From an uncultured virus (IMG/VR IMGVR_UViG_3300048836_000452) (lineage: Duplodnaviria; Heunggongvirae; Uroviricota; Caudoviricetes), in IMG/VR virus record IMGVR_UViG_3300048836_000452: a stretch of 64,000 bases of DNA; one strand, given 5' to 3'. Shown here piece by piece: positions 32,471 through 59,439 of the stretch (positions are counted from its first letter, which is position 1; each line of letters starts with the position of its first letter). Position numbers and translations under genes: made by a program. The notes beneath the pieces were generated by a model. It saw only the letters and a program-made list of their open reading frames with translations. It was not told the origin of the DNA and made no database searches.

Positions 32471-32571
32471 GTGGGTTCTCCTTTGCATGGGTCCGGTGGG
32501 GACCCCGCGCGAGAGGGCCGGGCCCGAAGGTCCAGCCCCACAGCAAAAGGCCGCCCCCGAAGGGGCGGCGA

Positions 32572-32778: not shown

Positions 32779-32780
32779 CG

Positions 32781-33182: not shown

Positions 33183-33283
33183 GATCTGGGGGTCCTTTCT
33201 CTGGTTGTCCCTATGGGGACCCCGCGCCGGCGGATCAGGATCAGCGAAAAGCCGCCCCCGAAGGGGCAGCGGAAGACCGGTCG

Positions 33284-33499
33284 TCAGAGGTCTATCCTTA
33301 TGCGGCTCGTGTGATGGCTGATGATGGTGGCCACATCGGAGCGGGGGATGGTGTAGGTGCTCTGCACCGCGAGATCGAAAGCTTGCCCTTTGGGCTGCAG
33401 CTTTTCCTTCATGCGGAGCAGGTCCTCCAACCCTCTCTCGTTCAGTATGCTCAGTCGCACCAGCGATCGGGTTGAGGTCGCGTGGATGATGATGTCCAT
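33284..33499 (-). CDS. Early hypothetical protein
   Basis: AAGGAG RBS after promoter 33518. Confidence 0.6.
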   Translation of the reverse strand: MDIIIHATSTRSLVRLSILNERGLEDLLRMKEKLQPKGQAFDLAVQSTYTIPRSDVATIISHHTSRIRIDL

Positions 33500-33602
33500 T
33501 TGGGTCTCCTTTCCTATGGGGACCCCGCGCCAAGAAAAGACCAGGCGCGAAGCGCCAGGTCACACAGAGCAAATGGACCGACCCCGAAGGGCCGGCCAGG
33601 AG

Positions 33603-33791
33603 TTACCGATGCGGCGTGCGTGCTTTCTGCTGATGCCGGTCCCGGATCATCTCCAGGATCTCGGCTACCTCGTCGATGCCATCCAGGCCTCTTCCGGACC
33701 TCAGGATCGCAGCCGCCCGTTGTCGCAAGTCCGCAGTTGAGAGATGCTGAATGTCCTGCATCTCAGTTTGGCGGATGTAGCTCGTGAGCAT
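33603..33791 (-). CDS. Early hypothetical protein
   Basis: GAGGAG RBS; DIQHLST shared with the 30724 ORF (DIQHMST). Confidence 0.55.
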   Translation of the reverse strand: MLTSYIRQTEMQDIQHLSTADLRQRAAAILRSGRGLDGIDEVAEILEMIRDRHQQKARTPHR

Positions 33792-33840
33792 GTGCTCTCC
33801 TCTCTTGCGCTTGGGGTTACTCCCAACGGGGACCCCGCGC

Positions 33841-34175
33841 AAAAAAACGATGGTCATTGTCCTACCATCCCGACAGCACCTTTTCAGTACTGCCGTTCCC
33901 CGGGTTTTGCACCCCGGGAATAGCTTCTGTCTGCTACACGTTTTCTGCTTACGCACAGGTGTCTCTCCTGCTTTGTGCTCACCATGGCTCTCGCTTTAGG
34001 TTGCACGCGTCTTCGTCCAGATTAATCAGGTTCCCCAAGCGGCTATTCTCTCGGGCATCGTCCTGAAGCCGTGTTTCCACGTTCCGGCGCTGCGGGCTCA
34101 CGCGGCCCCATTTACGGGCCGCTTTACTGATGCAGGGTTCTTCCACTTACCCACCAGGGGCAGTTCGGTTGTTCC
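33841..34175 (-). ncRNA. Candidate structured ncRNA (~330 nt)
   Basis: From promoter 34179 to a hairpin + T tract at ~33841-33870; several hairpins; no ORF with a convincing RBS. Confidence 0.45.
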
Positions 34176-34226
34176 TATGGGGACCCCGCGAAAAGAACCG
34201 CCCCCCGAAGGGGGCGGGGGTCTTGG

Positions 34227-35132
34227 TCACAAGATCGCGGTTGCGAAACTCCAGAGGTATGGCATTACCATCCACCCAAGCAGGGCATAGTCCACGATCG
34301 TCAGGACGATCAGCACGGGTGCGAGCACCGCTGCGATCCGAGGGACTGTGAGTACGGCAAGGAAGCCGACGATGGCTGTCAAGAGCCACGGCGCGAACTT
34401 CATCAGGACAGATTTCACGATCGCCAATATGGTCCGCTCAGGGAGCGTGACAACCTTGTCGACGGCCTCGAAACCTCGCACGAGTGCAGGTGTCGGGCTT
34501 GCCTTTGGGGTTGGAGCAGAGTTCGTGTTCGCCGGCGCAGTCCGAGCTACCTCAGCCACCTCGAAAGGTGTCATCAGTTTCGGGCCGTGCAGGGTCACAG
34601 GACGATCGGCCATGAGGGCCTTCTCATCGGCTGTCCGCATGGATACTGCTTTCTCGGCATTCTTCTGAATGCGGGTGCAGCGCTCTGTGCGATCGGGCGC
34701 GTTGAATATCTCGTCTGATGTGTGCGTGATCCCGTTTGGCGGCAGATACTTTCCTTCACGGAAGTAGCTGACGTGGGTCAGGCGCTCAACGAATTCTGCT
34801 TCACCCCGGGTCAAGCCGGTGATGAGGCAACGATTGTCTTTCGTCAAACCCAAGTTTGGATTTTTCGCAATGACAACGTTATTTCTGTCTATGAATGAAC
34901 CTTCAAACGCCGAGCCAATCTTGGCTTCGCGTCCGTCGTTTCCATATGCGTACACAAGTCCGGTCGGGTCGAGCGAGCGCGCTCCTTCGCGGCTGTCGAT
35001 CAGATCGTAGGCCCATTGCTTCAGCTCGATGTCTGATAGATTGGCCAGTTCCGGCAAAGCTTGCGCGGATACTTGTGATCCAAGAACCACCGCCACAATG
35101 GCGAGCAGTCCTCGTCGGATTTCCCTAAGCAT
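34227..35132 (-). CDS. Exported/membrane protein, lower-GC insert
   Basis: N-terminal signal/TM, two C-terminal TM segments, more AT-rich than neighbours. Confidence 0.7.
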   Translation of the reverse strand: MLREIRRGLLAIVAVVLGSQVSAQALPELANLSDIELKQWAYDLIDSREGARSLDPTGLVYAYGNDGREAKIGSAFEGSFIDRNNVVIAKNPNLGLTKDNRCLITGLTRGEAEFVERLTHVSYFREGKYLPPNGITHTSDEIFNAPDRTERCTRIQKNAEKAVSMRTADEKALMADRPVTLHGPKLMTPFEVAEVARTAPANTNSAPTPKASPTPALVRGFEAVDKVVTLPERTILAIVKSVLMKFAPWLLTAIVGFLAVLTVPRIAAVLAPVLIVLTIVDYALLGWMVMPYLWSFATAIL

Positions 35133-35185
35133 TTAATTTTTCCTTTCATGTCAAGGGGTTATTCCTATGGGAACCCCGTGACGCG

Positions 35186-35359
35186 AAAAAAAGTCTTTCA
35201 CTCCCTAGCGATAGGTCGTGTCGTCCTTTTAGAACCTCTGTCGAATTCCGCATGTGCTCGCGTGGTCTCAAGCGCCGGGTCAGGGCGCGATCTTCACGGA
35301 TCGTATGTGGCGGTGCCCTCGCCTTATGACAGGGGCATATCCGGTTTACGGTTCTTTCC
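35186..35359 (-). ncRNA. Candidate structured ncRNA (~170 nt)
   Basis: From promoter 35363 to T tract at ~35186; AGAACC/GGTTCT closing stem, internal hairpins. Confidence 0.45.
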
Positions 35360-35387
35360 TATGGGGACCCCGTGAAATTGAAGGGGC

Positions 35388-35538
35388 AAAAAAACGATGC
35401 CTTGCGGCATGTTCCTGGCCTAGATCCTGTTTCAGTCTGTCTCCAGGTGAACCTGGTCGGACCTATATCAGACCCGCCCTCCTTGCAGAGGGCTACCAAG
35501 CGATGTCTTGCGACATGCCGGGCGAGGCCGTGTATTCC
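35388..35538 (-). ncRNA. Candidate multibranch ncRNA (~150 nt)
   Basis: From promoter 35542; GGCCT/AGGCC closing stem enclosing four hairpins (two GCAA loops), then GCAA terminator hairpin + T7 tract. Confidence 0.55.
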
Positions 35539-35768
35539 TATGGGGACCCCGTGACTTCCTCCGGCAGGCCAGCACTGGCCCCGGCCATGTCGGTGATCCA
35601 TTCAGCCACCCAGCCCTCCGCCAGCTGCATCTGCTCATAGACGAGGAGCGTCAGGATGTATTTCTCCTGGAACGGGGTCAGCCCAAGACCAGGCAGGGCG
35701 TCAGCCGTTGCCTGGATGGCAGCCTCAAGTGCGGGGATCAGCTCCTCGCCGGCTGTCACCTCAGTCAA
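35538..35768 (-). CDS. Hypothetical protein
   Basis: 76-aa ORF ending in promoter 35542. Confidence 0.45.
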   Translation of the reverse strand: MTEVTAGEELIPALEAAIQATADALPGLGLTPFQEKYILTLLVYEQMQLAEGWVAEWITDMAGASAGLPEEVTGSP

Positions 35769-36252
35769 GGTGAAGCCTCCTCTGGCTTAGCAGGTCCTTC
35801 CTCACCCGCACGGCAGCGCAGAAATGCACGCGCTTCTTCAGGTGAACGCGATTGTTCGTTGTGACCTTCACGCGCCACGTAAACCCCTGAGCGTAGCGAT
35901 GATCGGGGATCGGCCAGATGTGATACCCCGGCATGTTTTGCTTGTTCTCGGCATTTGTTGCCTCTCTCAGGTTGGCCCATCGGTTGTTGGACTTGTCCCT
36001 GTCCTCGTGGTCGAGAAGGTGAGGCCAGCGCCCCTCCATCAGTGCGAAGGCAAGGCGATGCGCTTTGACGCGGAGCGTCCGGGTCAAGGCAACGACCACA
36101 TATCCCTTCCTGGACAGCGCGGTGCAGGGACCGCGTGGCCCTGTGATGACGCCAGTTTCAGGATCGTAGCTGAACCGCGCCCGCAGCCAGTCGATCGGTG
36201 GCAGCTCGTGCTTGCGTAATTCGGCGCGAAATGGTTCGGTCGGGATGTTCAT
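35761..36252 (-). CDS. HNH homing endonuclease
   Basis: YDPETG...AHRLAF...LDHEDRDKSNNRWANLREAT. Confidence 0.85.
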   Translation of the reverse strand: MNIPTEPFRAELRKHELPPIDWLRARFSYDPETGVITGPRGPCTALSRKGYVVVALTRTLRVKAHRLAFALMEGRWPHLLDHEDRDKSNNRWANLREATNAENKQNMPGYHIWPIPDHRYAQGFTWRVKVTTNNRVHLKKRVHFCAAVRVRKDLLSQRRLHLD

Positions 36253-36346
36253 CAGCGGCTCTCCAGGGCTGCTTGTGAAAAGTGTCACCGGGCGCTGTTC
36301 CATCAGCCCCGGTGACGCGCAGGCTAGCAGCCGCTTTCCCTGACAG

Positions 36347-36520
36347 TCAATCCAAATGCAGTTGATCCGGATCCCAAGGGCGCCCGTTCCAGGCGTCGTC
36401 GCTGGGCTGCATGCGCGAGCCGTCTGCGGCCATCCCCAGGCTCTCCATGAACTGGTCCTCCTCGTCAGGAAGATCGACGGTGTCTTCCTCTATCTCACTC
36501 TCGTCAGGCTTCGGTGCCAT
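36347..36520 (-). CDS. Small acidic protein
   Basis: 57 aa (below track cutoff) MAPKPDESEIEEDTVDLPDEEDQ...; AAGGAG RBS. Confidence 0.55.
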   Translation of the reverse strand: MAPKPDESEIEEDTVDLPDEEDQFMESLGMAADGSRMQPSDDAWNGRPWDPDQLHLD

Positions 36521-36692
36521 GGTTCTCTCCTTGTCAATATTAAGGGCAGACCCCCTCGACAGGCAGACCCGGCTGACGCATAGTGCCCTTGCGCCCTGTC
36601 GAGGGGGCGCAAGGGTAGATTACCAACCAGAGGGGTTTCCATGCAAGGACCAGCCAGTCCCTTGACCAATATGCTGTGGGAGGCATCAGGTC

Positions 36693-37229
36693 ATGCCTCA
36701 CTATAGAGTGGCGACACAAGTCGCGCAACGCCGTAATTGCAAGGTTGACAAGCCGAAGCGCCCGATCCGTATTGAGGGCGACATCGCTTTCATCCCCCTG
36801 ACCAAAGGGCATGAGGCCATCATCGACGCTGCAGATGTGCCGCTGGTGGAGGGGCGAAGATGGTCAATGTCTGGCCCGGGCTATGCTCAGTGGAAGGGCG
36901 GCGTTTATCTGCATCGGATGATCCTTGGCCTTGAAGCCGGAGACGGTCGGTTTGCGGACCACATCAATGGCAACAAGCTGGACTGCCGAAGGGCAAACCT
37001 CAGGGCCGCCACAATGGCGCAAAACGTCCAGAACCGGCCGGCCCGCAGCGATAATTCTTCCGGCATCAAGGGGGTTTCCTTTGATCGCAGCAGGGGGCTG
37101 TGGACGGCGGAGGTGAAGAGCGGCCGGGTGCGGATCAGGTGCGGACGCTTCGCAAGCAAAGAGGCGGCAGCAGATGCCGTCAGGGCCGCTCGCGAGGTCC
37201 TGCATGGGGAGTTCTGCAACCATGGCTGA
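36693..37229 (+). CDS. HNH-AP2 homing endonuclease
   Basis: YLHRMIL...ADHINGNKLDCRRANLR; NSSGIKGVSF...W.AEV AP2 domain. Confidence 0.85.
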   Translation: MPHYRVATQVAQRRNCKVDKPKRPIRIEGDIAFIPLTKGHEAIIDAADVPLVEGRRWSMSGPGYAQWKGGVYLHRMILGLEAGDGRFADHINGNKLDCRRANLRAATMAQNVQNRPARSDNSSGIKGVSFDRSRGLWTAEVKSGRVRIRCGRFASKEAAADAVRAAREVLHGEFCNHG

Positions 37230-38124
37230 GGACATCCTCACAGCCGCCCTCCGCCTTGCTGGCGATGGTGTGGCCATCTTCCCGGTCGCAGGCAAGGTGC
37301 CGGTCTGGGAAAAGGGCAAGAGCCCCACTGGCAGAGACGGCTTGCATGCAGCCACCACCGATGAGGAGGAGGTGGTGGCCCTCTTTTCCCACCCCCGCGT
37401 CACTGGCGTCGGCATGCCCACCGGAAAGATCAATCAGGTCACAGTGGTGGATGTCGATTGCGGGAGGGGTAAACCGCACCGGGATGCTGCAATGGCGTGG
37501 CTGGATGACAACCGCAAGAACTTGCTGGCCTCAACCGTATCCCGAACGCAGAGTGGCGGCTTGCATTTCCTGTGCCGCTACCGAGAGGACATCAAGTCAT
37601 CAGCCAATGTCTGGGCGATGGGTGTCGATTGCCGGAACAACGGGGGGTATATCCTTATCCCTCCGTCGCCCGGATACAGGTTTGAAAGGCTCATCGAGAA
37701 GGAGGATTGGGGGCTGCCCCCAGAACCCCCCGCAGCGCGGCTCCGCCGCGCCATCGTGGACCTCAAGGACGGCAAGTGCCCCACCGAGATCATGGCCATG
37801 CGCGACCTCATCGAGCAGGGCGTCACCTGGCACGATCCGGTCCGCGACATCATCGCCCACCTCGTAGGGTCGGGATGGTCGGATGCGGAAATCCTGCGCT
37901 TCACCTTCCAGTGGACATGGGCCGGGCACCAGCCAGCCGAAACCTTCGAGCAGCTTTGCGTCATGATCAACGGCGCGCGGGACAAGTGGACCCGCAAGGA
38001 TGATCCCACCACCACAGAAGAGGCCAAGCTCTGGAAGCTGGCCGACACATGGAACCGGTCGGCGCCAGACACGCGCAAGACCTTCTTCGACATGATCCGG
38101 GAAAGCGAGGAACAGAATGACTGA
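37222..38124 (+). CDS. Bifunctional DNA primase/polymerase (prim-pol)
   Basis: AIFPV..KVP, ATTD, GMPTG, VVDVD, RTQSGGLHF, GVDCRNNGGYILIPPS. Confidence 0.85.
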   Translation: MAEDILTAALRLAGDGVAIFPVAGKVPVWEKGKSPTGRDGLHAATTDEEEVVALFSHPRVTGVGMPTGKINQVTVVDVDCGRGKPHRDAAMAWLDDNRKNLLASTVSRTQSGGLHFLCRYREDIKSSANVWAMGVDCRNNGGYILIPPSPGYRFERLIEKEDWGLPPEPPAARLRRAIVDLKDGKCPTEIMAMRDLIEQGVTWHDPVRDIIAHLVGSGWSDAEILRFTFQWTWAGHQPAETFEQLCVMINGARDKWTRKDDPTTTEEAKLWKLADTWNRSAPDTRKTFFDMIRESEEQND

Positions 38125-51100: not shown

Positions 51101-51196
51101 CTGATGGCCTCCGGGGGGATGACTGCTGAGCAGGCTGCGGTTGAGGCGCAGAGGATGGCGACTGACAGGATCTTCGAGGCGGAGGCCGCATACTGA
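48134..51196 (+). CDS. Large internal virion (ejection) protein
   Basis: 1020 aa, low-complexity/acidic, in ejection-gene position. Confidence 0.65.
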   Translation: MASVNEKIDQFLDWALKEKGAVDIEPPLDGDVIPFVSRRASMSPEELRDLNDKRVMDRLFENFQKLNAAAPVMDPGPRVEAPSDAGLGDAQVNAPDAPTRAPGPPLARPSGGAGLNEGPLPYTGGPVNLREGPVNSNMWREGYRARDILLPPLTINRAFRNATGAPLREEFSNLGRFAYYTGWAGHPRYEMAVRGKKLLDDAIAAQEDQGLITNRINKEFEPKLKEARKALADASKGRSQSQITTATNNLNALLAQKDDAIAAVTANDPDALRAEIDKQIGADWTKTKNKIKKGAKLGAAGLAAVGGTVATTLAAKAIMDANAGGEDGDLVVRFARGQPMTDDEIAEVEDMFPPEEFEALQITRNKGLGIDYPQAKEPLFFQGGAGMTDGGGSPATPAASPVSTVEDWNDITQRYVSGGDLTPEEVAAMQQFLSPETMAELDGYRAAVQPAPASSPGPSAPSYKRPEVVEPEATMTAEEVLALMETDPAAAAAYVQENQNQRDLDAIRNYVDAGIQNFAGALDLPESIQGGLRNAAEGARTGQVGDVVPDNVVTDVWDGYSDLWSEYVMNPYESWKRGGDPNDPSFLRRPAAAAAKALLPEDAYRAYEDYGIGEFLDPMNYADMILGTKSDELGQGVYNLAREGLTAMEAEGTTPESFVEPYRKILGDLGGQPLGYPGEQGSVFEPGPLPAFGGARPELAPGGMPPAPALPPDALSGFVRPELTAAGMPAAAAGPAPIVEPQAPGMPMGPDAEPQPPSGGGISGFFGDLFGSGDDQQAKDESIDGIIDGAEVLNPRGQIDASPRPLPRPAGLNEDVAPAIDVTVPTVSAPAVATPTTPAGRPAPGAVGDLNTSRERGVAGLAEDAEAAEEELNWINRMMRDKLGLTDASERAKAAEALVSFGSTVLASKGDTWQSIGEGLQAGLGSVLAANDEEAASIAAQQEAMEEDARWRADYALRELNARRGGGAAGGMPADVQKLEYLTGIFYEQLMASGGMTAEQAAVEAQRMATDRIFEAEAAY

Positions 51197-54100
51197 TGGA
51201 CCAGGCAGGTCTGGGATACCCGGCTGCGCCGGCAGGTGTCGGGCTCAATGAGGCTCCTGCGGTCACGATGGGTGATCGCAACCGAGCTTTTGTCGAGAAC
51301 CGCAAGATGGGCATGTCTGTGGTGGATGCGGCTCGCGCTGCAGGCATGGCCGTCGCCCCTCCCCCTCCCCCGGTCGCGGCTTCGCCTGCGCCCGTCGACG
51401 ACCCCTCGATGCTGGACCTTGTTCCGGGGGCTATTCGCAGCACGGCAGCAAACACCCTCAAGGGTCTGGCGGAGATCGGCACCCGCCTGACGGGTGATGA
51501 CGAGATTGCCGATCAGGGTGCGGAATGGGCGGAGGCCATCGGTCCGACGGAGAGCCAGATCGCACTGTCCAACGAGATGCGCGAGGATCGTCAGGCGACT
51601 TATGAGGAAGACCAGAACGGCGTGAAGCGCCTTGCTGGTGATGTCGGCCAGGCACTTACCGAAAGCGCGCCTCAACTCGGCCTTTCCATCGGCTCAGGTC
51701 TTGCGGCAAGGCAGGGGTATCGAACTTCGATCAAGGCAATCTCCAAGCTCCTTCCTGGACGTCTGGGGAGGGTGGCTGAGGCCGTCTCCGAAAGCGCCTT
51801 CGGCAAGAACGCGTTTACCACGGCCGGCGCGGCCGCCCCGAACCTCGCGCTATCCTATGAGGACGGGATCCAGAAGGCGCTTGATCAGGGCCTTGATCCG
51901 TCCGACCCGGAGGTGCGGGACCGCATTGACCAGTCCTCTGTCGCGCGCACCGTGTTCGAGACATTTACCCCGTTTGCCATTCTCAGGAAGATTGGCACGC
52001 AGGCCCATGTTGCCCGCACTGTGAAGGGTGCCTTGGCGCGTGAGGTGCCGAAGACCGGCCTCATCGAGGGGTCGAGTGAAGTGGTCGATATGGCTATCCA
52101 GGAGGTCATGCTTGACGAGGAGTTGCGCTCAAAGCTGAGCGATGAGGACAAGACGGCGCTGCTGCCCTATGCCGCCGATCGCTACGGATATGATGCTGCC
52201 GTTGCCGCCCTGTCGGGCGCTGCTGCCGGTGGCGCGTTTGACGCGCCAGGTGTCAGCATGCAGCAGAGCCTGACCAACCGGCGCTTGGCTGAAGACGCTC
52301 GCAAGGCGGCGACCGTGCTTGAGCCGATGGGCATGAGCGCCGCTGATCTTGAGGATCTGACGAAGACCCCCGAAGGGACAAAGAAGCTTCGTGAGGCTGT
52401 TGAGCAGCTGGGGTCTGTCGAGGCTGCGCGCGCCCGCCACTTCCGCAAGATTGACGAGATGGGGGCTGAGGAAGATACCGTCGCAGAGCTGAAGGCGCAG
52501 GTGAACCGGCAGCTCGATGAGCGTGTCGACAAGATTGCCAAGGCGGTCGGCGCACCGAAGTCACTCGAGGATGTGCGCCGTGAGCGCACCTCGTGGGAGA
52601 AGGAGCGCCAGCGCACCGCGGCGGACCGGCTGGTCCGGCGAGGGCTGAAGCCGAAGAAGGACTTGCCCCCTGAAGTCGGTGAGGAGGTCGCCAACGCCCT
52701 TGACCAAGCCGAGGGGGAGGTCGACCGGTTGCAGACCCGGCTGGATGCGACAGCTAACGCTGAACGCCGGGCCGGCACCCAGGCCGAGCTGGACGCGGCG
52801 CTATCTACGCGGCGGCAGGCTCGGATTGACGCTCGCATGAAGGTCGAGGGGCTGACCAGCGCCCAGGCTGTCAGGGCTGTGGAGCAGGAAGGCAAGCAGA
52901 CCGAGGCGGAGAGACGCCTTGAGGCGCAGCGCGGAGCGCGGGAGCGCGCCATTGAGCGTCAGACCGAGATTGAGTTCCCGGAGACCATGGCGCCCGCGCT
53001 GCGCGCGCAGCGCGCACAGGAGGTTATCGCTGAGGCCGAGGCTGATGTTCGCCCCGACGCCGGTCTCGACGGGAAGATCAAGCGCCTCGAGCGCCAGAGA
53101 CGGGCCGCGACATCTCCTGAGGATGTTGATAGGCTCACAGACGAGATCGCCGATCTTGAGGCGCGGCGCGGTCTGCCCACACCTGCGGTGGAAGCAGCGC
53201 GTCGCGTTCTGCAGGCTCAGGGTGTAGCGGTCCCGCAGAGGGGTGAGGCGTCAGGGCCCACCGCTCAACCCGCTGAAGCTGAGGGTTTGCAGCCTGAGGC
53301 GGAGGCATCAGGGCCGGTGGGCGCGGCAGCGCCTGCCGGTCCGCGCAATACCGAGGTCGATGGAGACCTGGTTACCAACCTCAAGCGGGGTGGTGATAAC
53401 GCGCCCCCACTGTCGGACACGACCCGCCCGGCTCGGGCCCGGCGTCTCTACAAGCGCCTGGTTGATCGCGGCGTGCCGGCAGATGATGCGGCCAAGCAGG
53501 CGGCGGAGCTGACTGCACCCGTGCCGGAGCCGTCGCCACAGCCGGACGGGAAGGGCTTCCTTGGTCGCTTGCTGTCGCCGCTCCCCACCCCCGCGCAGCA
53601 GGGCATCGTCCTCGATGCCCTTGAGCGGGCACGAAGCTATGTCCGCCCCAATGGAACCCTCTTCGAGGCTTATGCCTACGAGGATCTGGCTGGGCGCTTC
53701 CGCGCAGCCAGGACGGTCGATGAAGTCTACGACATGATGGGCGACATCTCGGACGCCAGGTATGCCGAGGTGTCGGTGGTCATGACCCCCGATGGCCAGA
53801 TCGTGACGGCAGGGACGAACAACAACCCGAACTCTGTCATTGTCATGGTGCCGAATGACGCCTTCGAGCGGGGGCTGATCGACATTCACACCCACCCTGT
53901 CCCGTCTGCCTTCTCGATGCAGGACCTCTACTCGACCATGGGGAGCGGCCTGACCTCGCGGCTCGTTCTGACGGATGGTCAGGTTCTCGAAATTCGCCCT
54001 TTGGTCGCTGACGGTGAGCATCTGAACGAGGCCAAGGAAATGCTTCGCGAGGTCTCTCGCGCCATCATCGACGCAAGCCCGTCGCGTGGACCGACGGGTT

Positions 54101-57100
54101 ACTACAACGTCCAGACCCGGGCTGAGGCCATCACGCAGGCCGCCGAGATGATGGGCATGATCGACTACGTCCGCCCGTTCCGGGGCCTGGACCAGCAGCA
54201 GAAGGACATCGTTGATGCAACCCTTGACACCTTCAGGCCAAGGCTCGAACGGATTAAGGCAGGTCTTGCGAGTGGACCACGACCGGATGGAGGAGCAGGA
54301 GCTTCGCAAGCTGGCCGGGAGCGGCGATCCCCTAGCCTCCGAAGAGCTGTCGATGCGGAAGAGGGAGCGAGCGAAACGGATGACATCGAGCAAGACGAAC
54401 TCTCCGATCTCCTCGACGATCCCTACGACGTCCGCCACTCCGCCCGAACAGACCGTAGACCTTCCGTCAGTCCCGAGCGACTGAGGGATCTGGCCACCTC
54501 GGTTCACGCCGAGCTTCTGCGCGACGCCAATGCCAGCAGGCACCGGAAATCGCCGCTTGTCGCGGCGGTCCGGGACGGCAAGGTGACTGTCGATCAGATC
54601 GAAGCAGGCATCAAGGCGTGGGTAGAGAACGACGGCTACAAGCGGATGCATGCCCTCGGCGATGTCGTCCGCAGGATGTTCCCCGACCATGTCATCGGTC
54701 CTGATGACTTCGTCGTGGACAAGCGGAACAAGGTCGGCCAGGCGCGTTACGGCACGAAATACAATCGGCTTCTCGACAATGCCATCGAGCCTCACAAGAT
54801 AGCGCTCGAGCTGGCCGAGAAGGTTTACGTTGGCAAGGCTGGCTACATCGACAGCCGGATGATCTGGGTCCGGAACAAGTCAGGCCTGAGGTTCAAGAGC
54901 GGCCTCGTCGTCGTCAGTGACCGGTTGAAGAACAGCCTCGAATTCACCAGCCCGCCGCACACCCGGTTCGATCCACCCTGGCCGGCTGACAACGTGTCGA
55001 AGATCAAGCGCGATGTGCGCGGAAACGCCTTCACCGACGACGCTCTTGAGCCAGCGCGCCGCACGGCGCGCTATCTGCAGGGCAACCGGTACACGCTCGA
55101 TGCGGACCGTATCGCCAAACTGACCTCTGACGACATGATCTCGAAGAAGGGTCTTGCGGCCGATGGCCTCAAGAAGTCCGACATCGAGCTGTATCGCAAG
55201 CTTACCCGCACGCCGCGGGCTCAGTGGACCGACGTCGAGGCGAAGTTCATGGCCCGGCAGGGAGACAGCATCGGCGAGAAGATCGTCATCGCCGAGAACA
55301 AGCTCAAGCAGCTGCGCCGTGCCTATGAGACCTTCAAGGAGCAGCACGGGCCCGACGCGGAGACCGGCTTCCTCTACCAGGTGGACAATCGCGGTCGCAT
55401 CTATGCGGATGGCCAGTTCAACCCGCAGGGTGGCTCTGCGATCAAGGCAATCTTCAAGCATAAGGGTGTATCCCTGGCCGACATGACCGAGGTCGATGCT
55501 TCGGCTTCGGGCTGGCAGATCAACGCGCTGATGGCCCGTGACCACATTGCGGCGCCCGAGATCAACCTGGGCCGTGGCCAGGCAAGCGTGCCGGACGGGG
55601 TGAAGTCTGACCTCTACACCAACACGATCGCCAAGGTGGTGGAGCAGATCAGAGCTGACGCCGCGGTGGACGTGAAGTCTCTCCCGATCAGCCAGAGGTC
55701 TGATGCCCTGCGCCGCCAGCGCCTCGCCAAGGCCTTTATCAAGGCCGGCCTTGGTCCAGATGGGAAGCTGAACCGGGACGCCATCAAGGCTTCGGTGATT
55801 GCCGTAAACTACGGCGGGACGCGGGCGAATTTCTCCAAGAACCTTCGCAAGGTGTTTGACGCCGACATGGATGCCTTCCGGGATGTTCAGGGCGACCAGC
55901 CTTGGTCCTACATCGGCAATCTGGCGTTCGAGAGCCTGAGAGCGACGGCCCCGCATTCGCTGGCCTTGCAGGAGTGGACGACCTCTTCGATCTCCAAGCT
56001 GGCCGAGGCTGTCGAGAAGAAGTATCCGCCCGGCGAGATGCCACCGCTGGTGTTCTCCGTGGGCCTCGAGGGCAAGGTCAAGGTCAAGAAGAAGAAGACC
56101 AAGGAGGCCGAAGCTGCCATTCGTGGTCGCACGGCGACGACTTTTGCCCGGGATGCAAACGGAGCTTACGTCCTTGACGAGGCTGGTGAGCGGGTTGTCG
56201 TGAACAACACGCGCGAGGACGTGGTCAATTACAAGCAGCGCATCGACATCCTTGAGGTGGATGCCGACAAGATCGGCCGGGCGGTATGGGCGAACATCGT
56301 GCAGGGCTTTGATGCCTCTGTCCTGCACCGGGCGGTCGAGCGGTACAAGCAGATGACCGATGGCGCTTATATCACCACGAACCACGACAGCTTTACCGTT
56401 CCTCCGGAGCATGAAGGCGCGATTGCGGCTTCGGTCCGCGAGAGCATGAGGGCGATCATGGAGCAGGTAGATGCGCCGGCGCGCATCTACCAAGAGATCA
56501 TGGACCAGGCCGCAGAGCATGGGGTCGAGATCGACGTTCAGCCCTTCAGCAACATGGGCCAGTACAACATGGACGACCTAATGACCTCGACGCCGGTTTT
56601 CGGCGAAGGGGCCAAGGGCAAGGACTACATTCCCGACTACGCCGAGATCCCGGAAGATGCTCCGACCTTGCGCCGCGCAGTCGATCCAGAGGTTCCGGCG
56701 GGCGGTGGGGGTGCCACCACCGTCGGATCGCCCCCTGCCCGCGTCCCGGTTCGCGAGCAGGGGGCCTCGGATATTTCCGATCTGTCGCCAAGTCTGCGGC
56801 GGGCTGTCGATGTCGCTGATTATATGGCTTCGCTTCCTGAAACCTCATCCGTTCTGGCCAAGGTGCAGGCGGCTGCGGCTTCGCCGCAGGTAGCCAATCG
56901 CAACCTGATGCAGATCCTCGAAGATACGGTCTTCAACTCGTTCGCTCCGATCCGGCGCCTCGAGATCGGCCTCAAGGGCAAGCTGCCCGACGGGGCTGAA
57001 AGCGCGTTCAAGGCCGCCGAGATGGCCGTCAACGACAGCGGGCGGCAGGAGGCGCTGCTCTACTATGGCGCGGCCAAGTTCGGTCAGCATGGCGAATATG

Positions 57101-59439
57101 CTGTTGCCCCCGGGACGATGGGTCTGAAGGACATCTTCAAGCTTGCCGGCGGTGACGGTGCTGACCGTGGGCAGCGCCTGCAGGACTGGATGCAGTGGAT
57201 GGTCGCGCGCAGGGCGCAGGATCTGGCGGCGCGCGGGATCAAGACGCCGCTCACACCGCAAGACATTCAGACCGCGCTAGCCAAGGGGGCGAATATCCCT
57301 GAGTTCCAGCAGGCGGCGGATGCCTGGAAGAAGTTCAACGACGCCAACCTCGACTTCCTCGAGCAGTCTGGCCGCATCAACGCAGCGCAGAAGGCTGCGA
57401 TGCAGGCCGATGACTTCTATGTCCCCTTCTACCGGTCGGACGAGCGTGTTGACGGCACCTCGCCCGAGCTGGTCCTGCCTGGCTACAGGCCCGGCACGAT
57501 CCAGGCGGGCATCCTGAGCCGCAATCCCGGGATCAAGGCGATCAAGGGCGGGGACAAGCTCCGCATCGACAACTTGATGCAGAACATGATCCGCAACAGC
57601 CAGGCCATGGTGGGCGCGGCTATGCGGAACAAGGCGGCCAACCAGACCTTCGACCTGATGACGCAGGCCGGCATGGCGAGGGTCGAGCCGATCAGCGCTT
57701 CCAAGCCCGATCCGAATGCGGTTCGGATATGGAAAAACGGGGTTGAGAGCTGGATCATCCCCGAAGGGCGCGAGGCTTACCCCCTGATGACAGCGCTGGC
57801 TGGCATGCAGCCCGTTCAGATGAACGCAGCTATTCAGCTGATGGCTGATATTGCCAGCATCTTCCGGCAGGGCATCACGCTCACGCCACCGTTCATGATC
57901 CGCAACGCCATTCGTGGCGCGGTGTCGTCGGGCATCATGACGACCGGCGCGAACCTGACCCTGACCAACAACACGATCACCGGCTTCCGGGAGGCTTACA
58001 ACAACGGGCAGGCGGCGCAGGCGTTCAAGGCGCAAGCGGGGATGGGGGACTACCGGTTCGGCAACACGGATGCCGGCTTCGGGAAGGACGACATCCTGAT
58101 CGAGTTCGGCCTTCTGCCAAAGACGATGGGGTCTCGTTTCCGCAAGTTCATGGAGAAGATGGAGCACGTCGGTTCCGCGACGGAACTCGCTGACCGCATC
58201 GCGGCCCGCGAGACCATGATCGCCAATGGCATGCGGCCAGATGAGGCGTCCTATCAGGCCCTCACGATCATGAACTACAGCCGGAAGGGCAACAGCCAGG
58301 CGCTGCGCGCCTGGCTGCCGCTGGTCCCGTTCTTCAACGCCCGCTTGCAGGGCTTCTCCCGCATGGCGGAGGGGGCTGTGGGCAAGCGCGGGATGGCGGG
58401 TCGCAAGCAGGCTCTGATGCAGATGGCCTTGAACGGCTTGGTCCTCTCGATCATCTCGGGGGCGATCTGGGCCTGGAATTCCGACGACGAGGAGCGCAGG
58501 GAGAAGTACAAGGACGAGCCGCTCTACCGGCGCCTGAACTATCACATCGTGTACTTTGGCGACACCGCGCTCTACATCCCAAAGGCATTCGAGCTTGGCC
58601 ACGTCTTCTCCTCGATCCCCGAGTTGTTCGCGGATGCCTTCATCAAGGGAGACATGAACGAGATCGGCGCTGGCCTGCGAAAGATCGCAACCGACACGGT
58701 GACGATGAACATGATCCCAGCGGCAGCCCTGCCCATCATCGAGGGGCTGACCAACTACAGCTTCTTCCGTCAGGCTGAGCTTGAAGGGATGCGGGAAAGC
58801 GCCATGAGGCCATCCGACAGGACGTCAGGGGCATCAGCCCTGACACGCCTGGTCGGGCGCGACATGGGGATCAGCGATCTGACGGGCATCTCGCCCACCA
58901 TGATCGAGCACTGGGCCTCCAGCTACGGCGGGATCTACTACGTCATGCTGTCTACGGCGATCGACAGCGTAGCGTCGGACCTTGGCCTCATGCCGGTCCG
59001 CCCCGGCGGGGCTTTTGGTGACACTCCGGTCCTGTCGCCGGTCCTTAACCGAGCCTTCGGCTCCTTCCTTAGGGACAGTTCGACCACCACCACGAAGTGG
59101 GTCGAGGAGTTCTACCGGACCAAGGACTGGATTACCCAGATCCACAGGTCTGCTACCGCCGCCGAAGGTGCGGGGGACATCGAGTATTCCAACAGGCTCT
59201 TGGCTGCCGCTCCCGGGCGACCAGCGGCGTACAAGCTTGTCAACAAAGCGGGGACGGACCTGAGCGAGATCAACGCTGAGCTGCGGAAGATCAGGGATGA
59301 CCGGTCGATGAGCCGTGAAGAGAAGCGCAGGCGCGAGACTGAATTGATCCAGAGGCGGAATGCGATCACAAAGAACGTCATGCGGACGATCCGGGACATT
59401 GAGGATAGGCAGGGGGCAACCTTCAGGTCGGTTCAGTGA
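51196..59439 (+). CDS. 2747-aa virion polyvalent protein: N-terminal ejection region, JAB-like domain, T7-like RNA polymerase, LPD38-like C-terminus
   Basis: DNRGRIY..FNPQG (aa ~1397), DASASGWQ (D1434), R1527-x3-K-x7-YG, NIVQGFDAS, HDSF (D1731); HTHP..FS..D; C-terminal PFFNARLQG / YIPKAFELG. Confidence 0.85.
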   Translation: MDQAGLGYPAAPAGVGLNEAPAVTMGDRNRAFVENRKMGMSVVDAARAAGMAVAPPPPPVAASPAPVDDPSMLDLVPGAIRSTAANTLKGLAEIGTRLTGDDEIADQGAEWAEAIGPTESQIALSNEMREDRQATYEEDQNGVKRLAGDVGQALTESAPQLGLSIGSGLAARQGYRTSIKAISKLLPGRLGRVAEAVSESAFGKNAFTTAGAAAPNLALSYEDGIQKALDQGLDPSDPEVRDRIDQSSVARTVFETFTPFAILRKIGTQAHVARTVKGALAREVPKTGLIEGSSEVVDMAIQEVMLDEELRSKLSDEDKTALLPYAADRYGYDAAVAALSGAAAGGAFDAPGVSMQQSLTNRRLAEDARKAATVLEPMGMSAADLEDLTKTPEGTKKLREAVEQLGSVEAARARHFRKIDEMGAEEDTVAELKAQVNRQLDERVDKIAKAVGAPKSLEDVRRERTSWEKERQRTAADRLVRRGLKPKKDLPPEVGEEVANALDQAEGEVDRLQTRLDATANAERRAGTQAELDAALSTRRQARIDARMKVEGLTSAQAVRAVEQEGKQTEAERRLEAQRGARERAIERQTEIEFPETMAPALRAQRAQEVIAEAEADVRPDAGLDGKIKRLERQRRAATSPEDVDRLTDEIADLEARRGLPTPAVEAARRVLQAQGVAVPQRGEASGPTAQPAEAEGLQPEAEASGPVGAAAPAGPRNTEVDGDLVTNLKRGGDNAPPLSDTTRPARARRLYKRLVDRGVPADDAAKQAAELTAPVPEPSPQPDGKGFLGRLLSPLPTPAQQGIVLDALERARSYVRPNGTLFEAYAYEDLAGRFRAARTVDEVYDMMGDISDARYAEVSVVMTPDGQIVTAGTNNNPNSVIVMVPNDAFERGLIDIHTHPVPSAFSMQDLYSTMGSGLTSRLVLTDGQVLEIRPLVADGEHLNEAKEMLREVSRAIIDASPSRGPTGYYNVQTRAEAITQAAEMMGMIDYVRPFRGLDQQQKDIVDATLDTFRPRLERIKAGLASGPRPDGGAGASQAGRERRSPSLRRAVDAEEGASETDDIEQDELSDLLDDPYDVRHSARTDRRPSVSPERLRDLATSVHAELLRDANASRHRKSPLVAAVRDGKVTVDQIEAGIKAWVENDGYKRMHALGDVVRRMFPDHVIGPDDFVVDKRNKVGQARYGTKYNRLLDNAIEPHKIALELAEKVYVGKAGYIDSRMIWVRNKSGLRFKSGLVVVSDRLKNSLEFTSPPHTRFDPPWPADNVSKIKRDVRGNAFTDDALEPARRTARYLQGNRYTLDADRIAKLTSDDMISKKGLAADGLKKSDIELYRKLTRTPRAQWTDVEAKFMARQGDSIGEKIVIAENKLKQLRRAYETFKEQHGPDAETGFLYQVDNRGRIYADGQFNPQGGSAIKAIFKHKGVSLADMTEVDASASGWQINALMARDHIAAPEINLGRGQASVPDGVKSDLYTNTIAKVVEQIRADAAVDVKSLPISQRSDALRRQRLAKAFIKAGLGPDGKLNRDAIKASVIAVNYGGTRANFSKNLRKVFDADMDAFRDVQGDQPWSYIGNLAFESLRATAPHSLALQEWTTSSISKLAEAVEKKYPPGEMPPLVFSVGLEGKVKVKKKKTKEAEAAIRGRTATTFARDANGAYVLDEAGERVVVNNTREDVVNYKQRIDILEVDADKIGRAVWANIVQGFDASVLHRAVERYKQMTDGAYITTNHDSFTVPPEHEGAIAASVRESMRAIMEQVDAPARIYQEIMDQAAEHGVEIDVQPFSNMGQYNMDDLMTSTPVFGEGAKGKDYIPDYAEIPEDAPTLRRAVDPEVPAGGGGATTVGSPPARVPVREQGASDISDLSPSLRRAVDVADYMASLPETSSVLAKVQAAAASPQVANRNLMQILEDTVFNSFAPIRRLEIGLKGKLPDGAESAFKAAEMAVNDSGRQEALLYYGAAKFGQHGEYAVAPGTMGLKDIFKLAGGDGADRGQRLQDWMQWMVARRAQDLAARGIKTPLTPQDIQTALAKGANIPEFQQAADAWKKFNDANLDFLEQSGRINAAQKAAMQADDFYVPFYRSDERVDGTSPELVLPGYRPGTIQAGILSRNPGIKAIKGGDKLRIDNLMQNMIRNSQAMVGAAMRNKAANQTFDLMTQAGMARVEPISASKPDPNAVRIWKNGVESWIIPEGREAYPLMTALAGMQPVQMNAAIQLMADIASIFRQGITLTPPFMIRNAIRGAVSSGIMTTGANLTLTNNTITGFREAYNNGQAAQAFKAQAGMGDYRFGNTDAGFGKDDILIEFGLLPKTMGSRFRKFMEKMEHVGSATELADRIAARETMIANGMRPDEASYQALTIMNYSRKGNSQALRAWLPLVPFFNARLQGFSRMAEGAVGKRGMAGRKQALMQMALNGLVLSIISGAIWAWNSDDEERREKYKDEPLYRRLNYHIVYFGDTALYIPKAFELGHVFSSIPELFADAFIKGDMNEIGAGLRKIATDTVTMNMIPAAALPIIEGLTNYSFFRQAELEGMRESAMRPSDRTSGASALTRLVGRDMGISDLTGISPTMIEHWASSYGGIYYVMLSTAIDSVASDLGLMPVRPGGAFGDTPVLSPVLNRAFGSFLRDSSTTTTKWVEEFYRTKDWITQIHRSATAAEGAGDIEYSNRLLAAAPGRPAAYKLVNKAGTDLSEINAELRKIRDDRSMSREEKRRRETELIQRRNAITKNVMRTIRDIEDRQGATFRSVQ

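What the first reader, a model, noticed from the sequence alone, without database searches (positions are those of the whole stretch)
35388..35538. ORF-less ~150-nt multibranch RNA under its own phage promoter
Seen on the - strand after the promoter: GGCCT, ATGTC-GCAA-GACAT, GCCCTCT-GCAA-GGAGGGC, GGGTCT-GATAT-AGGTCC, CCAGG-TTCA-CCTGG, AGGCC, then ATGCC-GCAA-GGCAT and T7. GNRA loops and G-U pairs fit only this strand, and there is no RBS/ATG. Inference: a dedicated early ncRNA (decoy, antitoxin mimic or scaffold).
Basis: partly seen in the sequence, partly recalled or inferred. Interest (0 to 1): 0.72.

Follow-up and report, generated by a model that had tools for sequence, protein, structure and literature searches.

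The report
Conserved structured small RNA of a phage
An uncultured phage carries a ~150-base gene with no protein-coding frame that folds into a four-armed RNA. Related phages keep the same fold through matching base changes, so it is a real RNA family not yet catalogued, and its job is still unknown.

Summary
Window 35538→35388 (− strand) lies between a phage promoter-like motif and a hairpin+U7 terminator. It folds far better than shuffles on the − strand only (z −3.2/−4.2 vs −0.5). The motif (cgCGGGGTCCCCATAGGRA) occurs 28 times in the window, 27 on the − strand and usually just after a terminator. The phage's only RNA polymerase is a T7-like domain inside a 2747-aa polyvalent protein.

I found four further distinct homologues in uncultured-phage contigs, plus variants in public runs. 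On five sequences, 99.6% of pair cells are paired (26–48% when partners are slid) and 8 pairs change on both sides. A sixth variant has 10 substitutions, none of which breaks a pair.

The fold is a four-way junction: P1; H1 and H2 capped by GNRA loops; a long three-helix H3 with a UUCG-type loop; then the terminator. There is no Rfam, tRNA or tmRNA match and no conserved reading frame.

It is the only unit present in all five phages of a variable array of ORF-less promoter–terminator cassettes.

Function is inferred, not shown. Most likely it is a trans-acting, shape-dependent, protein-binding RNA (decoy or scaffold) made by the phage polymerase. "Early" timing and the antitoxin-mimic idea are untested or unsupported. 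It is a new RNA family.

The parts
35535..35553 (-). Promoter-like motif CACGGGGTCCCCATA|GGAA. The inferred start is the G at 35538.
   Evidence: Exact match to the repeated motif. Consensus built from 28 sites. The start site is inferred by analogy with T7-group promoters (recalled) and was not measured.
35388..35538 (-). RNA A: the whole inferred transcript (~151 nt), from inferred start to the end of the U-tract.
   Evidence: The covariance model finds it at 35388-35534, 142 bits.
35525..35530 (-). P1, 5' strand (CGGCCU). It closes the four-way junction by pairing with 35416-35421.
   Evidence: helix 1 (96.7% of cells paired). The outermost pair is C·A in the window and C-G in the other 4.
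35495..35523 (-). H1: 3+3+5 bp with a 1x1 loop, a bulged C and a GNRA loop (GCAA).
   Evidence: helix 2: 11 pairs, 100% paired, one pair changed on both sides. The run variant adds two more compensatory pairs, 20-31 and 22-29.
35476..35493 (-). H2: 7-bp stem with a GCAA loop. Stem length is 5-8 bp in relatives and the loop is always GNRA.
   Evidence: helix 3. Pair 43-58 changes C-G to U-A in the run variant.
35423..35474 (-). H3: P3a (5 bp), a 6x6 purine-rich internal loop, P3b (4 bp), an internal loop, P3c (5-6 bp) and a UUCA/UUCG/UUUA loop.
   Evidence: helices 4-6: 100% paired, 5 pairs changed on both sides. Favoured or equal in energy in 5 of 5 sequences.
35416..35421 (-). P1, 3' strand (AGGCC plus A/G).
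   Evidence: helix 1.
35388..35415 (-). Intrinsic terminator: extended hairpin with core ATGCC-GCAA-GGCAT (35397-35410) and U7 (35388-35394). Its 17 nt repeat the apex of H1.
   Evidence: terminator scan; helix 7; (two copies of the 17-mer pattern per phage and none elsewhere).
35356..35374 (-). Next promoter-like motif, starting ORF-less unit B.
35181..35359 (-). Unit B: a second ORF-less promoter-to-terminator cassette (~179 nt), 96% identical in L080.
   Evidence: Fold z is only −0.9.
51196..59439 (+). 2747-aa polyvalent protein carrying the phage's only RNA polymerase domain (T7-like) and LPD38. It is the presumed enzyme for the motif promoters.
   Evidence: PF00940 at 4.7e-15 and PF18857 at 1.9e-20; one PF00940 domain in the complete 69-kb relative.

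Best explanation
RNA A is a genuine, independently transcribed, non-coding structured RNA of a new family. It belongs to a lineage of uncultured phages that transcribe with their own T7-like polymerase.

The polymerase domain sits in a giant polyvalent, presumably virion-delivered protein. It is proposed to start at the G of ...CCCCATA|GGAA (35538) and to stop at the hairpin+U7 terminator (35388). This releases a ~150-nt RNA that folds into a compact four-way junction with four parts:
- P1, which closes the junction.
- H1 and H2, both capped by GNRA tetraloops.
- A long three-helix arm, H3.
- The terminator hairpin.

The RNA has almost no conserved unpaired sequence. Its junction core (P1, H1, base of H3) is invariant in sequence. 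H2 and distal H3 vary freely but keep their pairing. I therefore think it acts in trans through its shape, by binding and titrating or scaffolding a protein (host or phage), rather than by base-pairing or by being translated.

What is shown and what is inferred:
- Shown here: the fold, its strand, its conservation and covariation, the lack of coding capacity, and its place in a cassette array.
- Inferred: the promoter function of the motif, the transcript ends, the timing, and the whole protein-binding mechanism.

Rough odds: real structured RNA element 0.9; discrete transcript with these ends 0.75; trans-acting protein-binding decoy or scaffold 0.35-0.4. The confidence figure given for this explanation (0.4) is for the full statement including the mechanism.
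For: Fold and strand:
- z −3.2 and −4.2 on the − strand against −0.5 on the + strand.
- Several invariant G·U pairs, for example 12-40 and 80-125. These would be A·C on the other strand.

Homologues:
- The covariance model R1 searched 85 sources (314,672 bases). It found 5 matches at E ≤ 2.6e-29 and one noise hit at E 0.28.
- The 5 matches are the window, two IMG/VR phages and two metagenome contigs.

Covariation on the 5 sequences:
- 46 pairs, with 99.6% of 227 cells paired, against 26-48% when partners are slid.
- 8 pairs changed on both sides, against 0-1 when slid.
- Covariation score 0.30 against 0.195 in shuffles (0 of 500 reach it).

Sixth variant, from contigs of runs X10/X18:
- 10 substitutions in total.
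- 6 of them form 3 compensatory pairs.
- 3 keep a pair through a change on one side.
- 1 lies in a loop, and none disrupts a pair.

Loops: they stay GNRA (H1, H2, terminator) or UNCG-like (H3) in all five, although the H2 stem ranges from 5 to 8 bp.

No coding:
- Sense frames carry stops.
- Indels of 4 and 2 nt shift the antisense frames between clades.

Promoter reading:
- 28 motif copies, 27 on the − strand, typically right after a terminator and 15-35 nt before an RBS and start codon.
- The complete relative has the same layout: 28 reverse and 1 forward copies, with 0/0 for the control pattern.
- Each phage has a single T7-like polymerase domain.

Core status: of the ORF-less units, only RNA A is present in all 5 phages. 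The other units occur in 1-3 of 5.

Against base-pairing or cis roles:
- Linkers at the junction are 1 nt each.
- The downstream unit differs among phages and has its own promoter.
Against: - No transcript evidence. No listed run is on record as RNA, and what was laid were contigs.
- No protein partner is identified. The neighbouring small proteins have no Pfam or PHROG family.
- There are only 5 full sequences in two clades, and alignment A3 was fitted to the model. The covariation statistics are therefore indicative, not a formal test.
- The base of H3 has a competing local hairpin that is also largely conserved.
- The promoter role of the motif rests on position and analogy only. An RNA-processing site is not excluded.
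- The argument for protein binding is by elimination.
Confidence: 0.4

Rival explanations
1. Cis-acting leader, or a riboswitch-like attenuator. The four-way junction would be a sensor, and the adjacent terminator would decide whether the polymerase reads through into the next cassette.
For: - The architecture resembles junction-type riboswitches followed directly by a terminator, with an invariant junction core.
- The terminator sequence is nearly invariant among the five.
- Its 17 nt repeat the H1 apex, so H1-3' could in principle pair with terminator-5'.
- A second, mutually exclusive pairing at the base of H3 is also largely conserved.
Against: - The unit downstream differs among the five phages: unit B, unit X, an unrelated unit, or a small gene. 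It always has its own promoter.
- The swap pairing shows no change on both sides. It is broken by the window's own compensatory H1 change (29-145 unpaired; 82.9% of cells paired, no better than its shuffles). By my reading, the run variant breaks it too.
- No Rfam riboswitch matches.
Confidence: 0.12
2. Structural module without a trans function. It would be a stable 3' end or insulator that terminates and protects the upstream operon mRNA (g57-g76). That operon has no terminator of its own in the window, and RNA A would separate it from the promoter array.
For: - In the window, L080 and L081 the upstream 76-aa frame runs into the promoter motif with no terminator before RNA A.
- The − strand between 35550 and 40141 has no motif promoter, so upstream transcripts would end at RNA A's terminator.
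Against: - In L005 and L035 another unit with its own terminator lies between g76 and RNA A, yet RNA A is kept.
- A plain terminator would suffice. An invariant junction core, GNRA loops kept across stem-length changes, and a dedicated consensus-perfect promoter are not needed for insulation.
Confidence: 0.12
3. Base-pairing regulatory sRNA that targets a host or phage mRNA.
For: - Size, own promoter and Rho-independent terminator are typical of sRNAs.
- Phage ncRNA candidates are widely reported (PMC10914365, passages read).
Against: - Conserved unpaired stretches are very short: 1-nt linkers and tetraloops.
- The internal loops of H3 differ between clades.
- The only longer single-stranded piece is the 5' GGAAUA(C)AC, which is shared with the promoter's initial transcribed sequence.
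- The host is unknown, so targets could not be searched.
Confidence: 0.1
4. Transcript or DNA element of a replication origin. Tandem phage promoters giving short transcripts next to the primase-helicase genes would resemble the promoter-dependent origins of T7 (recalled knowledge).
For: - Three motif promoters lie within 400 bp (35550, 35371, 35177), about 1.6 kb from the PrimPol and D5-like helicase genes.
- This is the lowest-GC part of the window, 0.577.
- No DNA polymerase gene was recognised among the proteins scanned.
Against: - The constraint is on RNA pairing, with G·U pairs and strand specificity.
- The RNA ends at an efficient-looking terminator, so it would be released rather than left as a primer.
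- No iterons lie around it.
- The low GC is mostly due to the inserted 301-aa gene.
Confidence: 0.08
5. It encodes a small protein on either strand.
For: - A 7-codon ATG frame is present in all five.
- A TTG frame of 37+ codons is open in the window and L080.
- Antisense frames have few stops in this GC-rich DNA.
Against: - No Shine-Dalgarno sequence precedes the ATG.
- The TTG frame is stopped after 12-23 codons in 3 of 5.
- Indels shift the antisense frames between clades.
- Substitutions come as the two sides of stem pairs.
Confidence: 0.02

Closest known systems
phi29-type packaging RNA (pRNA) (properties recalled)
   Same: A phage-encoded, ORF-less, multibranch RNA of ~120-170 nt made from its own promoter. 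It works through its shape as a protein-bound scaffold.
   Different: - pRNA has a three-way junction and complementary loops that link copies into a ring on the portal.
- Here the fold is a four-way junction whose loops are GNRA or UUCG-type and not complementary to each other.
- No Rfam match at E ≤ 10.
- This phage has a terminase ATPase and no protein-primed system was seen.
Short terminated promoter-proximal transcripts of lambdoid phages (lambda '6S' pR'-tR' RNA) (recalled)
   Same: A strong phage promoter, a short ORF-less transcript and an intrinsic terminator.
   Different: - Those are by-products of an antitermination switch that opens the late operon.
- Here each following cassette has its own promoter.
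- The RNA has a conserved, covarying multibranch fold.
Phage ncRNA candidates found by transcript mapping (PAK_P3 ncRNA1/2, phiKZ and others; PMC10914365, passages read)
   Same: Small phage RNAs without ORFs, conserved within a genus, with unknown function.
   Different: - According to those passages they are mostly derived from 5'UTRs by premature termination or from 3'UTR processing.
- RNA A is a free-standing cassette with a dedicated promoter and terminator.
- RNA A sits in an array of such cassettes and has comparative support for its fold.
Four-way-junction riboswitch aptamers followed by a terminator (for example SAM-I; recalled)
   Same: A compact four-way junction with a sequence-invariant core, directly followed by a terminator hairpin.
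   Different: - No match to any Rfam riboswitch.
- No conserved downstream gene.
- No conserved antiterminator pairing.
RNA-based phage counter-defence: RNA anti-CRISPRs (solitary repeat units) and pseudo-ToxI antitoxin mimics (recalled)
   Same: Phage non-coding RNAs that act as decoys for host defence proteins. RNA A also lies in a variable accessory region next to a very acidic small protein.
   Different: - Those mimic CRISPR repeats or are tandem 34-45-nt repeats.
- RNA A has no tandem repeats and no CRISPR-repeat model match.
- The host is unknown, so mimicry cannot be tested.
N4-type virion RNA polymerase early transcription (PMC4496689 abstract seen in listing; promoter hairpin details recalled)
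   Same: A giant virion-type protein with a single-subunit polymerase domain, and a short conserved promoter containing an inverted repeat (GGGG-T-CCCC).
   Different: - N4 has three early promoters. Here there are 28, spread over 18 kb, plus one for the opposite strand.
- The domain matches the T7-type Pfam family directly.
- The ATA|GG start region looks T7-like.

Membership tests
Any Rfam 15 family | Covariance-model score at or above the family's gathering threshold | tested here: not met
   - 0 matches in the whole window at gathering thresholds.
- At E ≤ 10 over 34900-36600 there are two hits. One is on the opposite strand of the element (ATPC, 15.4 bits against 45, E 8.8). The other lies outside it.
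- In four relatives at E ≤ 1, only a 17-nt terminator-like PhotoRC-I fragment elsewhere.
tRNA / tmRNA | Cloverleaf with a 7-nt anticodon loop and a T loop, or a tmRNA tag | tested here: not met
   - ARAGORN finds 0 genes in the window.
- The arms end in 4-nt loops.
phi29-type pRNA | Three-way junction with two loops complementary between copies; Rfam model | tested here: not met
   - The fold is a four-way junction.
- Loops are GCAA/GAAA and UUCA/UUCG and are not complementary.
- No Rfam hit.
Riboswitch / transcription attenuator | Conserved alternative (antiterminator) pairing that excludes the terminator | tested here: not met
   The only obvious candidate, H1-3' with terminator-5', has 82.9% of cells paired. 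No pair changes on both sides, it is not above its shuffles, and the window's own H1 covariation breaks it.
Riboswitch / transcription attenuator | Conserved regulated gene downstream | tested here: not met
   The downstream unit differs in the five phages and carries its own promoter.
Type III antitoxin RNA (ToxI-like) or its phage mimic | Tandem direct repeats of about 34-45 nt | tested here: not met
   - Tandem Repeats Finder finds none in the element.
- The only internal repeat is a 17-nt hairpin present twice, about 105 nt apart.
Type III antitoxin RNA (ToxI-like) or its phage mimic | Matches the antitoxin of a host toxin | not testable with these tools
   The host is unknown and no genome is held for the window.
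RNA anti-CRISPR (solitary repeat unit) | Sequence and fold of a CRISPR repeat of the host | tested here: inconclusive
   No Rfam CRISPR-repeat model hit at E ≤ 10. The host's arrays are unknown.
Group I intron (considered because HNH endonuclease genes are adjacent) | Intron core fold (Rfam model) interrupting a gene, with the endonuclease inside it | tested here: not met
   - No intron model hit at E ≤ 10 over 34900-36600.
- The HNH gene is absent from relatives that keep RNA A (joint 35777→36366).
Free-standing phage ncRNA gene (generic kind) | Own promoter and terminator, no conserved ORF, conserved structure | tested here: met
   - Motif promoter and terminator.
- No conserved frame.
- Covariation.

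Promoter activity itself is inferred.
Free-standing phage ncRNA gene (generic kind) | Detected discrete transcript | not testable with these tools
   No RNA holder was listed and only contigs could be laid.

The most novel reading that the evidence does not exclude
RNA A is the conserved core of a battery of RNA effectors. An injected, virion-borne T7-like polymerase would fire them from consensus-perfect promoters the moment the DNA enters, before any phage protein can be made. This would be an RNA-only immediate-early layer of host takeover or counter-defence. RNA A's four-way junction would trap a host protein, such as a nuclease, a sensor or an RNA chaperone. The neighbouring cassettes would be swapped between phages by recombination at the promoter repeats, like anti-defence gene islands.
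Probability: 0.2. Interest if true: 0.85.

Novelty: new variant of a known kind. Interest (0 to 1): 0.62.

Why it matters
Phage non-coding RNAs with a proven fold are very few. Most candidates are UTR fragments without comparative support.

Here a free-standing RNA gene has a fold backed by compensatory changes. It sits in a swappable array of promoter–terminator cassettes, in a phage lineage with a self-contained transcription system and no cultured relative.

- If the RNA binds a host factor, it would be a new type of RNA decoy or scaffold.
- The short, well-defined promoter and terminator pair could serve as an orthogonal expression module for a new single-subunit polymerase.
- Even with function unknown, it is a clean candidate for a new Rfam family.

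Tried and rejected
**Searches for more homologues**
- An 18-mer from H2 in IMG/VR gave 4 loci, all chance.
- A junction 16-mer gave 27 loci and the first gapped pattern gave 31 loci in IMG/VR. Only the same three contigs are real.
- A stricter three-block pattern gave the same three contigs.
- The genome-contig scan gave 13 loci, 0 real.
- The metagenome scan gave 7 loci, 2 real.
- Protein-anchored searches with PrimPol and the 62-aa protein alignment returned only the same IMG/VR contigs.
- The fixed patterns would miss variants like the one in runs X10/X18, so the family is probably larger than seen.

**Named phages**
- No DNA match.
- Primase-helicase reaches at most 32% identity, to actinophages.
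- For the polyvalent protein, only the C-terminal third matches, at 22-28%.

**Expression**
- No RNA holder was listed.
- Contigs of two runs guessed to be RNA cover RNA A, but they continue into other sequence on both sides, so they say nothing about a transcript.

**Other checks**
- No whole genome is held for the window.
- Earlier findings of the scan: nothing by place or by sequence.
- Origin-like iterons near the element: none.
- Other instances of the duplicated 17-nt hairpin as a shared protein site: none outside RNA A.
- Neighbouring small proteins as RNA binders: no family hit.
- Literature string search for the promoter: 2 papers, both unrelated human or mouse work.

Full report
**1. 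What is in the sequence**

On the − strand the region reads as follows:
- The end of a 76-codon frame, whose TAG stop lies inside a conserved motif, CACGGGGTCCCCATAGGAA (35553-35535).
- About 150 nt without a credible ORF.
- A hairpin, ATGCC-GCAA-GGCAT, followed by seven T (35394-35388).
- A second copy of the same motif at 35374-35356.

The fold is better than chance on the − strand only:

| Sequence folded | Energy / z-score | Shuffles as good |
|---|---|---|
| 161 nt, − strand | −63 kcal/mol, z −3.22 | 2 of 200 |
| Same 161 nt, + strand | z −0.51 | 53 of 200 |
| 147-nt core, − strand | z −4.22 | 0 of 200 |

**2. The setting**

The window is a phage genome of about 63% GC with few recognisable genes.

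Proteins identified:
- Portal-like and virion proteins, a tail fibre, a terminase ATPase, a PrimPol, a D5-type primase-helicase, an SNF2 helicase and two HNH endonucleases.
- A 2747-aa protein (51196-59439) with a T7-type RNA polymerase domain (PF00940, 4.7e-15) and an LPD38 domain.
- According to a passage of Iyer et al. [quoted passage not shown] It is therefore reasonable, though not shown, that this polymerase travels in the virion.

Relatives:
- No named phage is close. There is no DNA match, and protein identities are at most 32%.
- A complete relative (69,145 bp, direct terminal repeats, CheckV 100%) has a single PF00940 domain in a 2765-aa frame.

**3. The repeated motif**
- The 19-mer has 20 matches at ≤3 mismatches against 0.00 expected.
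- The looser 16-mer has 28 matches against 0.41 expected. Of these, 27 lie on the − strand between 22.3 and 40.1 kb and one lies on the + strand at 40249.
- The aligned consensus is cgC-GGGGTCCCC-AT(A/C)-GG(A/G)A (a 29th regex hit at 45395 looks unrelated).
- Most copies sit just after a GC-rich hairpin plus T-run and 15-35 nt before a Shine-Dalgarno sequence and start codon.
- The complete relative has the same layout: 28 reverse and 1 forward copies, and 0/0 for the reversed control pattern.

I read the motif as the promoter of the phage polymerase, starting at the G of ATA|GG. That reading rests on position, on the single phage polymerase, and on a recalled likeness to T7-group promoters (…TATA|GGG). 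It is inferred, not measured.

The copies with the perfect ending CCCCATAGGAA cluster at the upstream end of the leftward array (33.5-40.1 kb), where the ORF-less units lie.

**4. Homologues**
- A scan of IMG/VR for the promoter motif brought in three contigs with many copies. BLAST then showed about 80% identity across the RNA unit.
- A gapped pattern from conserved junction sequence found two more in the metagenome collection.
- The covariance model built from three sequences was run over 85 sources (314,672 bases). It gave five matches of 131-168 bits (E ≤ 2.6e-29) and one noise hit at E 0.28.
- The many other pattern hits in IMG/VR, metagenomes and genomes were chance.
- The five distinct sequences fall into two clades: window with L080, and L005/L045 with L015 and L081.
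- Synteny is kept: PrimPol, then small frames, then the 76-aa frame, then RNA A, and further on a 62-aa protein.

**5. The fold and its support**

RNAalifold and the model alignment give the following architecture:

| Element | Description |
|---|---|
| P1 | 6 bp, closing the junction |
| linker | 1 nt |
| H1 | 3+3+5 bp, a 1x1 loop, a bulged C, GNRA loop |
| linker | 1 nt |
| H2 | 5-8 bp, GNRA loop in all five |
| linker | 1 nt |
| H3 | P3a 5 bp; 6x6 purine-rich loop; P3b 4 bp; loop; P3c 5-6 bp; UUCG, UUCA or UUUA loop |
| linker | 1 nt |
| P1, 3' strand | abuts the terminator directly |

Pair counts on the five sequences (the innermost H2 pair was left out because stem-length differences misalign it):
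- 46 pairs and 227 cells, with 99.6% paired, against 25.8-47.6% when the 3' partners are slid by 1-3 columns.
- 8 pairs changed on both sides, against 0-1 when slid.
- Covariation score 0.300 against 0.195 ± 0.018 in shuffles (0 of 500 reach it).
- The pairs changed on both sides lie in H1 (1), H2 (1), P3b (3), P3c (2) and the terminator (1).
- P1, the lower part of H1 and P3a hardly vary at all, so the junction core is conserved in sequence.

Caveats: there are five sequences in two clades, and the alignment was fitted to the model.

**6. Independent variants from public runs**

Laying contigs of four runs on 34100-36400 showed further relatives.
- The variant in X10 and X18 differs from the window RNA at 10 places with no gaps. 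Mapped on the fold:
  - Three pairs change on both sides: 20-31 (U-A to A-U), 22-29 (U-A to C-G) and 43-58 (C-G to U-A).
  - Three changes keep a pair from one side.
  - One change is in the H3 loop, and none breaks a pair.
- The X6 variant has three of the same harmless changes.
- These are contigs, not reads, and say nothing about expression.

**7. The one disputed stem**
Three of five have a C·C mismatch, and one strand is invariant.
- It excludes P3a and P3b, which are 100% paired with three pairs changed on both sides.
- With either pairing enforced, the distal version is lower in energy by 0.2 to 10.3 kcal/mol in 5 of 5. It equals the unconstrained optimum in 3 of 5.
- I take the distal version as the main fold and leave open that the local hairpin is a folding intermediate or an alternative state.

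**8. Not coding, not a known RNA**

No coding capacity:
- Sense frames carry stops.
- The 7-codon ATG frame has no Shine-Dalgarno sequence, and its changes are stem covariations.
- A TTG frame is open in two sequences and stopped after 12-23 codons in three.
- Antisense frames are open, as is common at this GC content, but shift between clades through 4-nt and 2-nt indels.

No known RNA family:
- Rfam gives nothing at gathering thresholds in the window.
- Nothing meaningful appears at E ≤ 10 locally or at E ≤ 1 in four relatives.
- ARAGORN finds no tRNA or tmRNA.
- There are no tandem repeats.

**9. The array**

RNA A is one of several ORF-less promoter-to-terminator units.

| Source | Order of units |
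|---|---|
| Window | RNA A; unit B (~179 nt); the 301-aa gene; a 336-nt unit without a convincing ORF; then the 62-aa gene |
| L080 | RNA A; unit X (~90 nt); unit B; the 301-aa gene homologue |
| L081 | RNA A; unit X; unit C |
| L005 | a 79-nt unit; RNA A; three other units including unit C; a gene |
| L035 | a 285-nt unit; RNA A; a 40-codon gene; unit C |

- Only RNA A is present in all five.
- Unit C also shows a conserved fold: 50 pairs, 3 changed on both sides, across three sequences.
- Run contigs skip the 301-aa cassette exactly from one promoter copy to the next (34190→35187).
- They also skip the HNH gene (35777→36366), and one carries 276 extra letters between RNA A's terminator and the next promoter.
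- The region is therefore a cassette-exchange hot spot, with the promoter repeats as likely recombination points.

**10. How it most likely works**

Shown:
- A strand-specific, conserved, covarying four-way-junction RNA element with promoter-like and terminator signals.
- No coding capacity.
- Core status within a variable array.

Inferred:
- The phage polymerase makes it as a discrete ~150-nt RNA, probably from the onset of infection if the polymerase is injected.
- It acts in trans through its shape.

Reasons for the trans, shape-dependent reading:
- Unpaired conserved sequence is nearly absent.
- The junction core is invariant, while the peripheral helices vary only in ways that keep pairing and GNRA caps.
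- The downstream neighbour is not conserved and has its own promoter.

That profile fits a protein-binding decoy or scaffold better than an antisense regulator or a leader. It is an argument by elimination, and I give the mechanism 0.35-0.4.

The duplicated 17-nt bulged-C GNRA hairpin (the H1 apex and the terminator) could be a paired protein site or a relic of duplication. The two copies covary within themselves and not with each other. This also argues against an antiterminator swap.

**11. Rivals**

The rivals considered are:
- an attenuator or riboswitch-like leader;
- a stabilising or insulating 3' module for the upstream operon;
- a base-pairing sRNA;
- an origin transcript;
- a small protein.

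Each is set out with its evidence in the Rival explanations section. None is excluded except, practically, the coding one.

**12. Comparison and novelty**
- It works most like free-standing structured phage RNAs such as phi29 pRNA (recalled), but it fails that family's defining features.
- It resembles a junction riboswitch in outline but fails the antiterminator and regulated-gene tests.
- It is not a member of any catalogued family.
- The kind (a phage ncRNA gene) is known. This fold is not, and neither is the array of independently promoted RNA cassettes driven by a T7-like polymerase embedded in a polyvalent protein.
- Two searches of the paper library bear on whether this is already in print. 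Three strings of the promoter found only two unrelated papers. A search on polyvalent-protein polymerases listed none with such an RNA, judged from titles and abstract openings only.
- In PMC10914365, the passages I read report phage ncRNA candidates that are mostly UTR-derived.

**13. Verdict**

This is a real feature and a new RNA family, with good but small-sample comparative support. The function is open.

Noticed in passing
window 22319-40264: 28 copies of the promoter-like motif cgCGGGGTCCCCAT(A/C)GGRA. 27 point leftward, each heading a small cassette that usually ends in a GC-rich hairpin plus T-run. Only one (40249, + strand) faces the ~33 kb of structural genes, which include the polymerase itself. 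The complete relative has the same 28+1 layout.
   Followed up: partly
window 51196-59439 (+): A 2747-aa polyvalent protein with a T7-type RNA polymerase domain (residues ~1433-1782) and LPD38 (~2436-2592). Its C-terminal third resembles DarB-like or methylase-annotated virion proteins of Vibrio and Aeromonas phages at 22-28% identity. It is the only polymerase domain found in the phage.
   Followed up: partly
window 35761-36303 (-) and 36693-37229 (+): Two HNH (HNH_3; the second also has AP2) endonuclease genes. The first is absent from relatives (L005; joint 35777→36366 in run X1), so it is a recent free-standing insertion between the 57-aa and 76-aa frames.
   Followed up: partly
window 34191-35186 (-): The 301-aa gene has a signal-like N-terminus, a C-terminal membrane segment, and lower GC3 (0.65) than its neighbours. 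It is a cassette present in L080 but skipped exactly promoter-to-promoter in contigs of runs X18 and X6. This suggests cassette exchange by recombination at the promoter repeats.
   Followed up: partly
window 35181-35359 (-): Unit B is a second ORF-less promoter-to-terminator unit, 96% identical in L080. Its fold is not better than shuffles (z −0.9), and there is too little variation to test it.
   Followed up: partly
window 33840-34175 (-): A 336-nt unit between two promoter copies has only an unconserved 55-codon GTG frame, folds well (z −3.3), and ends in ...CATCGTTTTTTT like RNA A. It may be another ncRNA or a long leader.
   Followed up: no
L005:2471-2655, L035:992-1180 (-), L081:1105-1296 (-): Unit C is a ~190-nt ORF-less cassette shared by three relatives and absent from the window. 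Its predicted fold has 50 pairs, 3 of which change on both sides.
   Followed up: partly
window 33603-33791 (-): A 62-aa protein just downstream of the RNA array is 90-94% identical in relatives whose flanking DNA is only about 80% identical. It has no Pfam family.
   Followed up: no
window 36347-36520 (-): A 57-aa, very acidic protein (runs of D and E) lies at the head of the leftward genes. It may be a DNA-mimic-type early protein. It has no family hit.
   Followed up: no
window 40828-41278 (+): A 29-nt repeat (CAAGnnGAAGGnnGGCAAGTGATG...) recurs three to four times, at the junctions of small + strand frames, ending in ATG. It looks like a repeated ribosome-site and start module for a family of small genes.
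   Followed up: no
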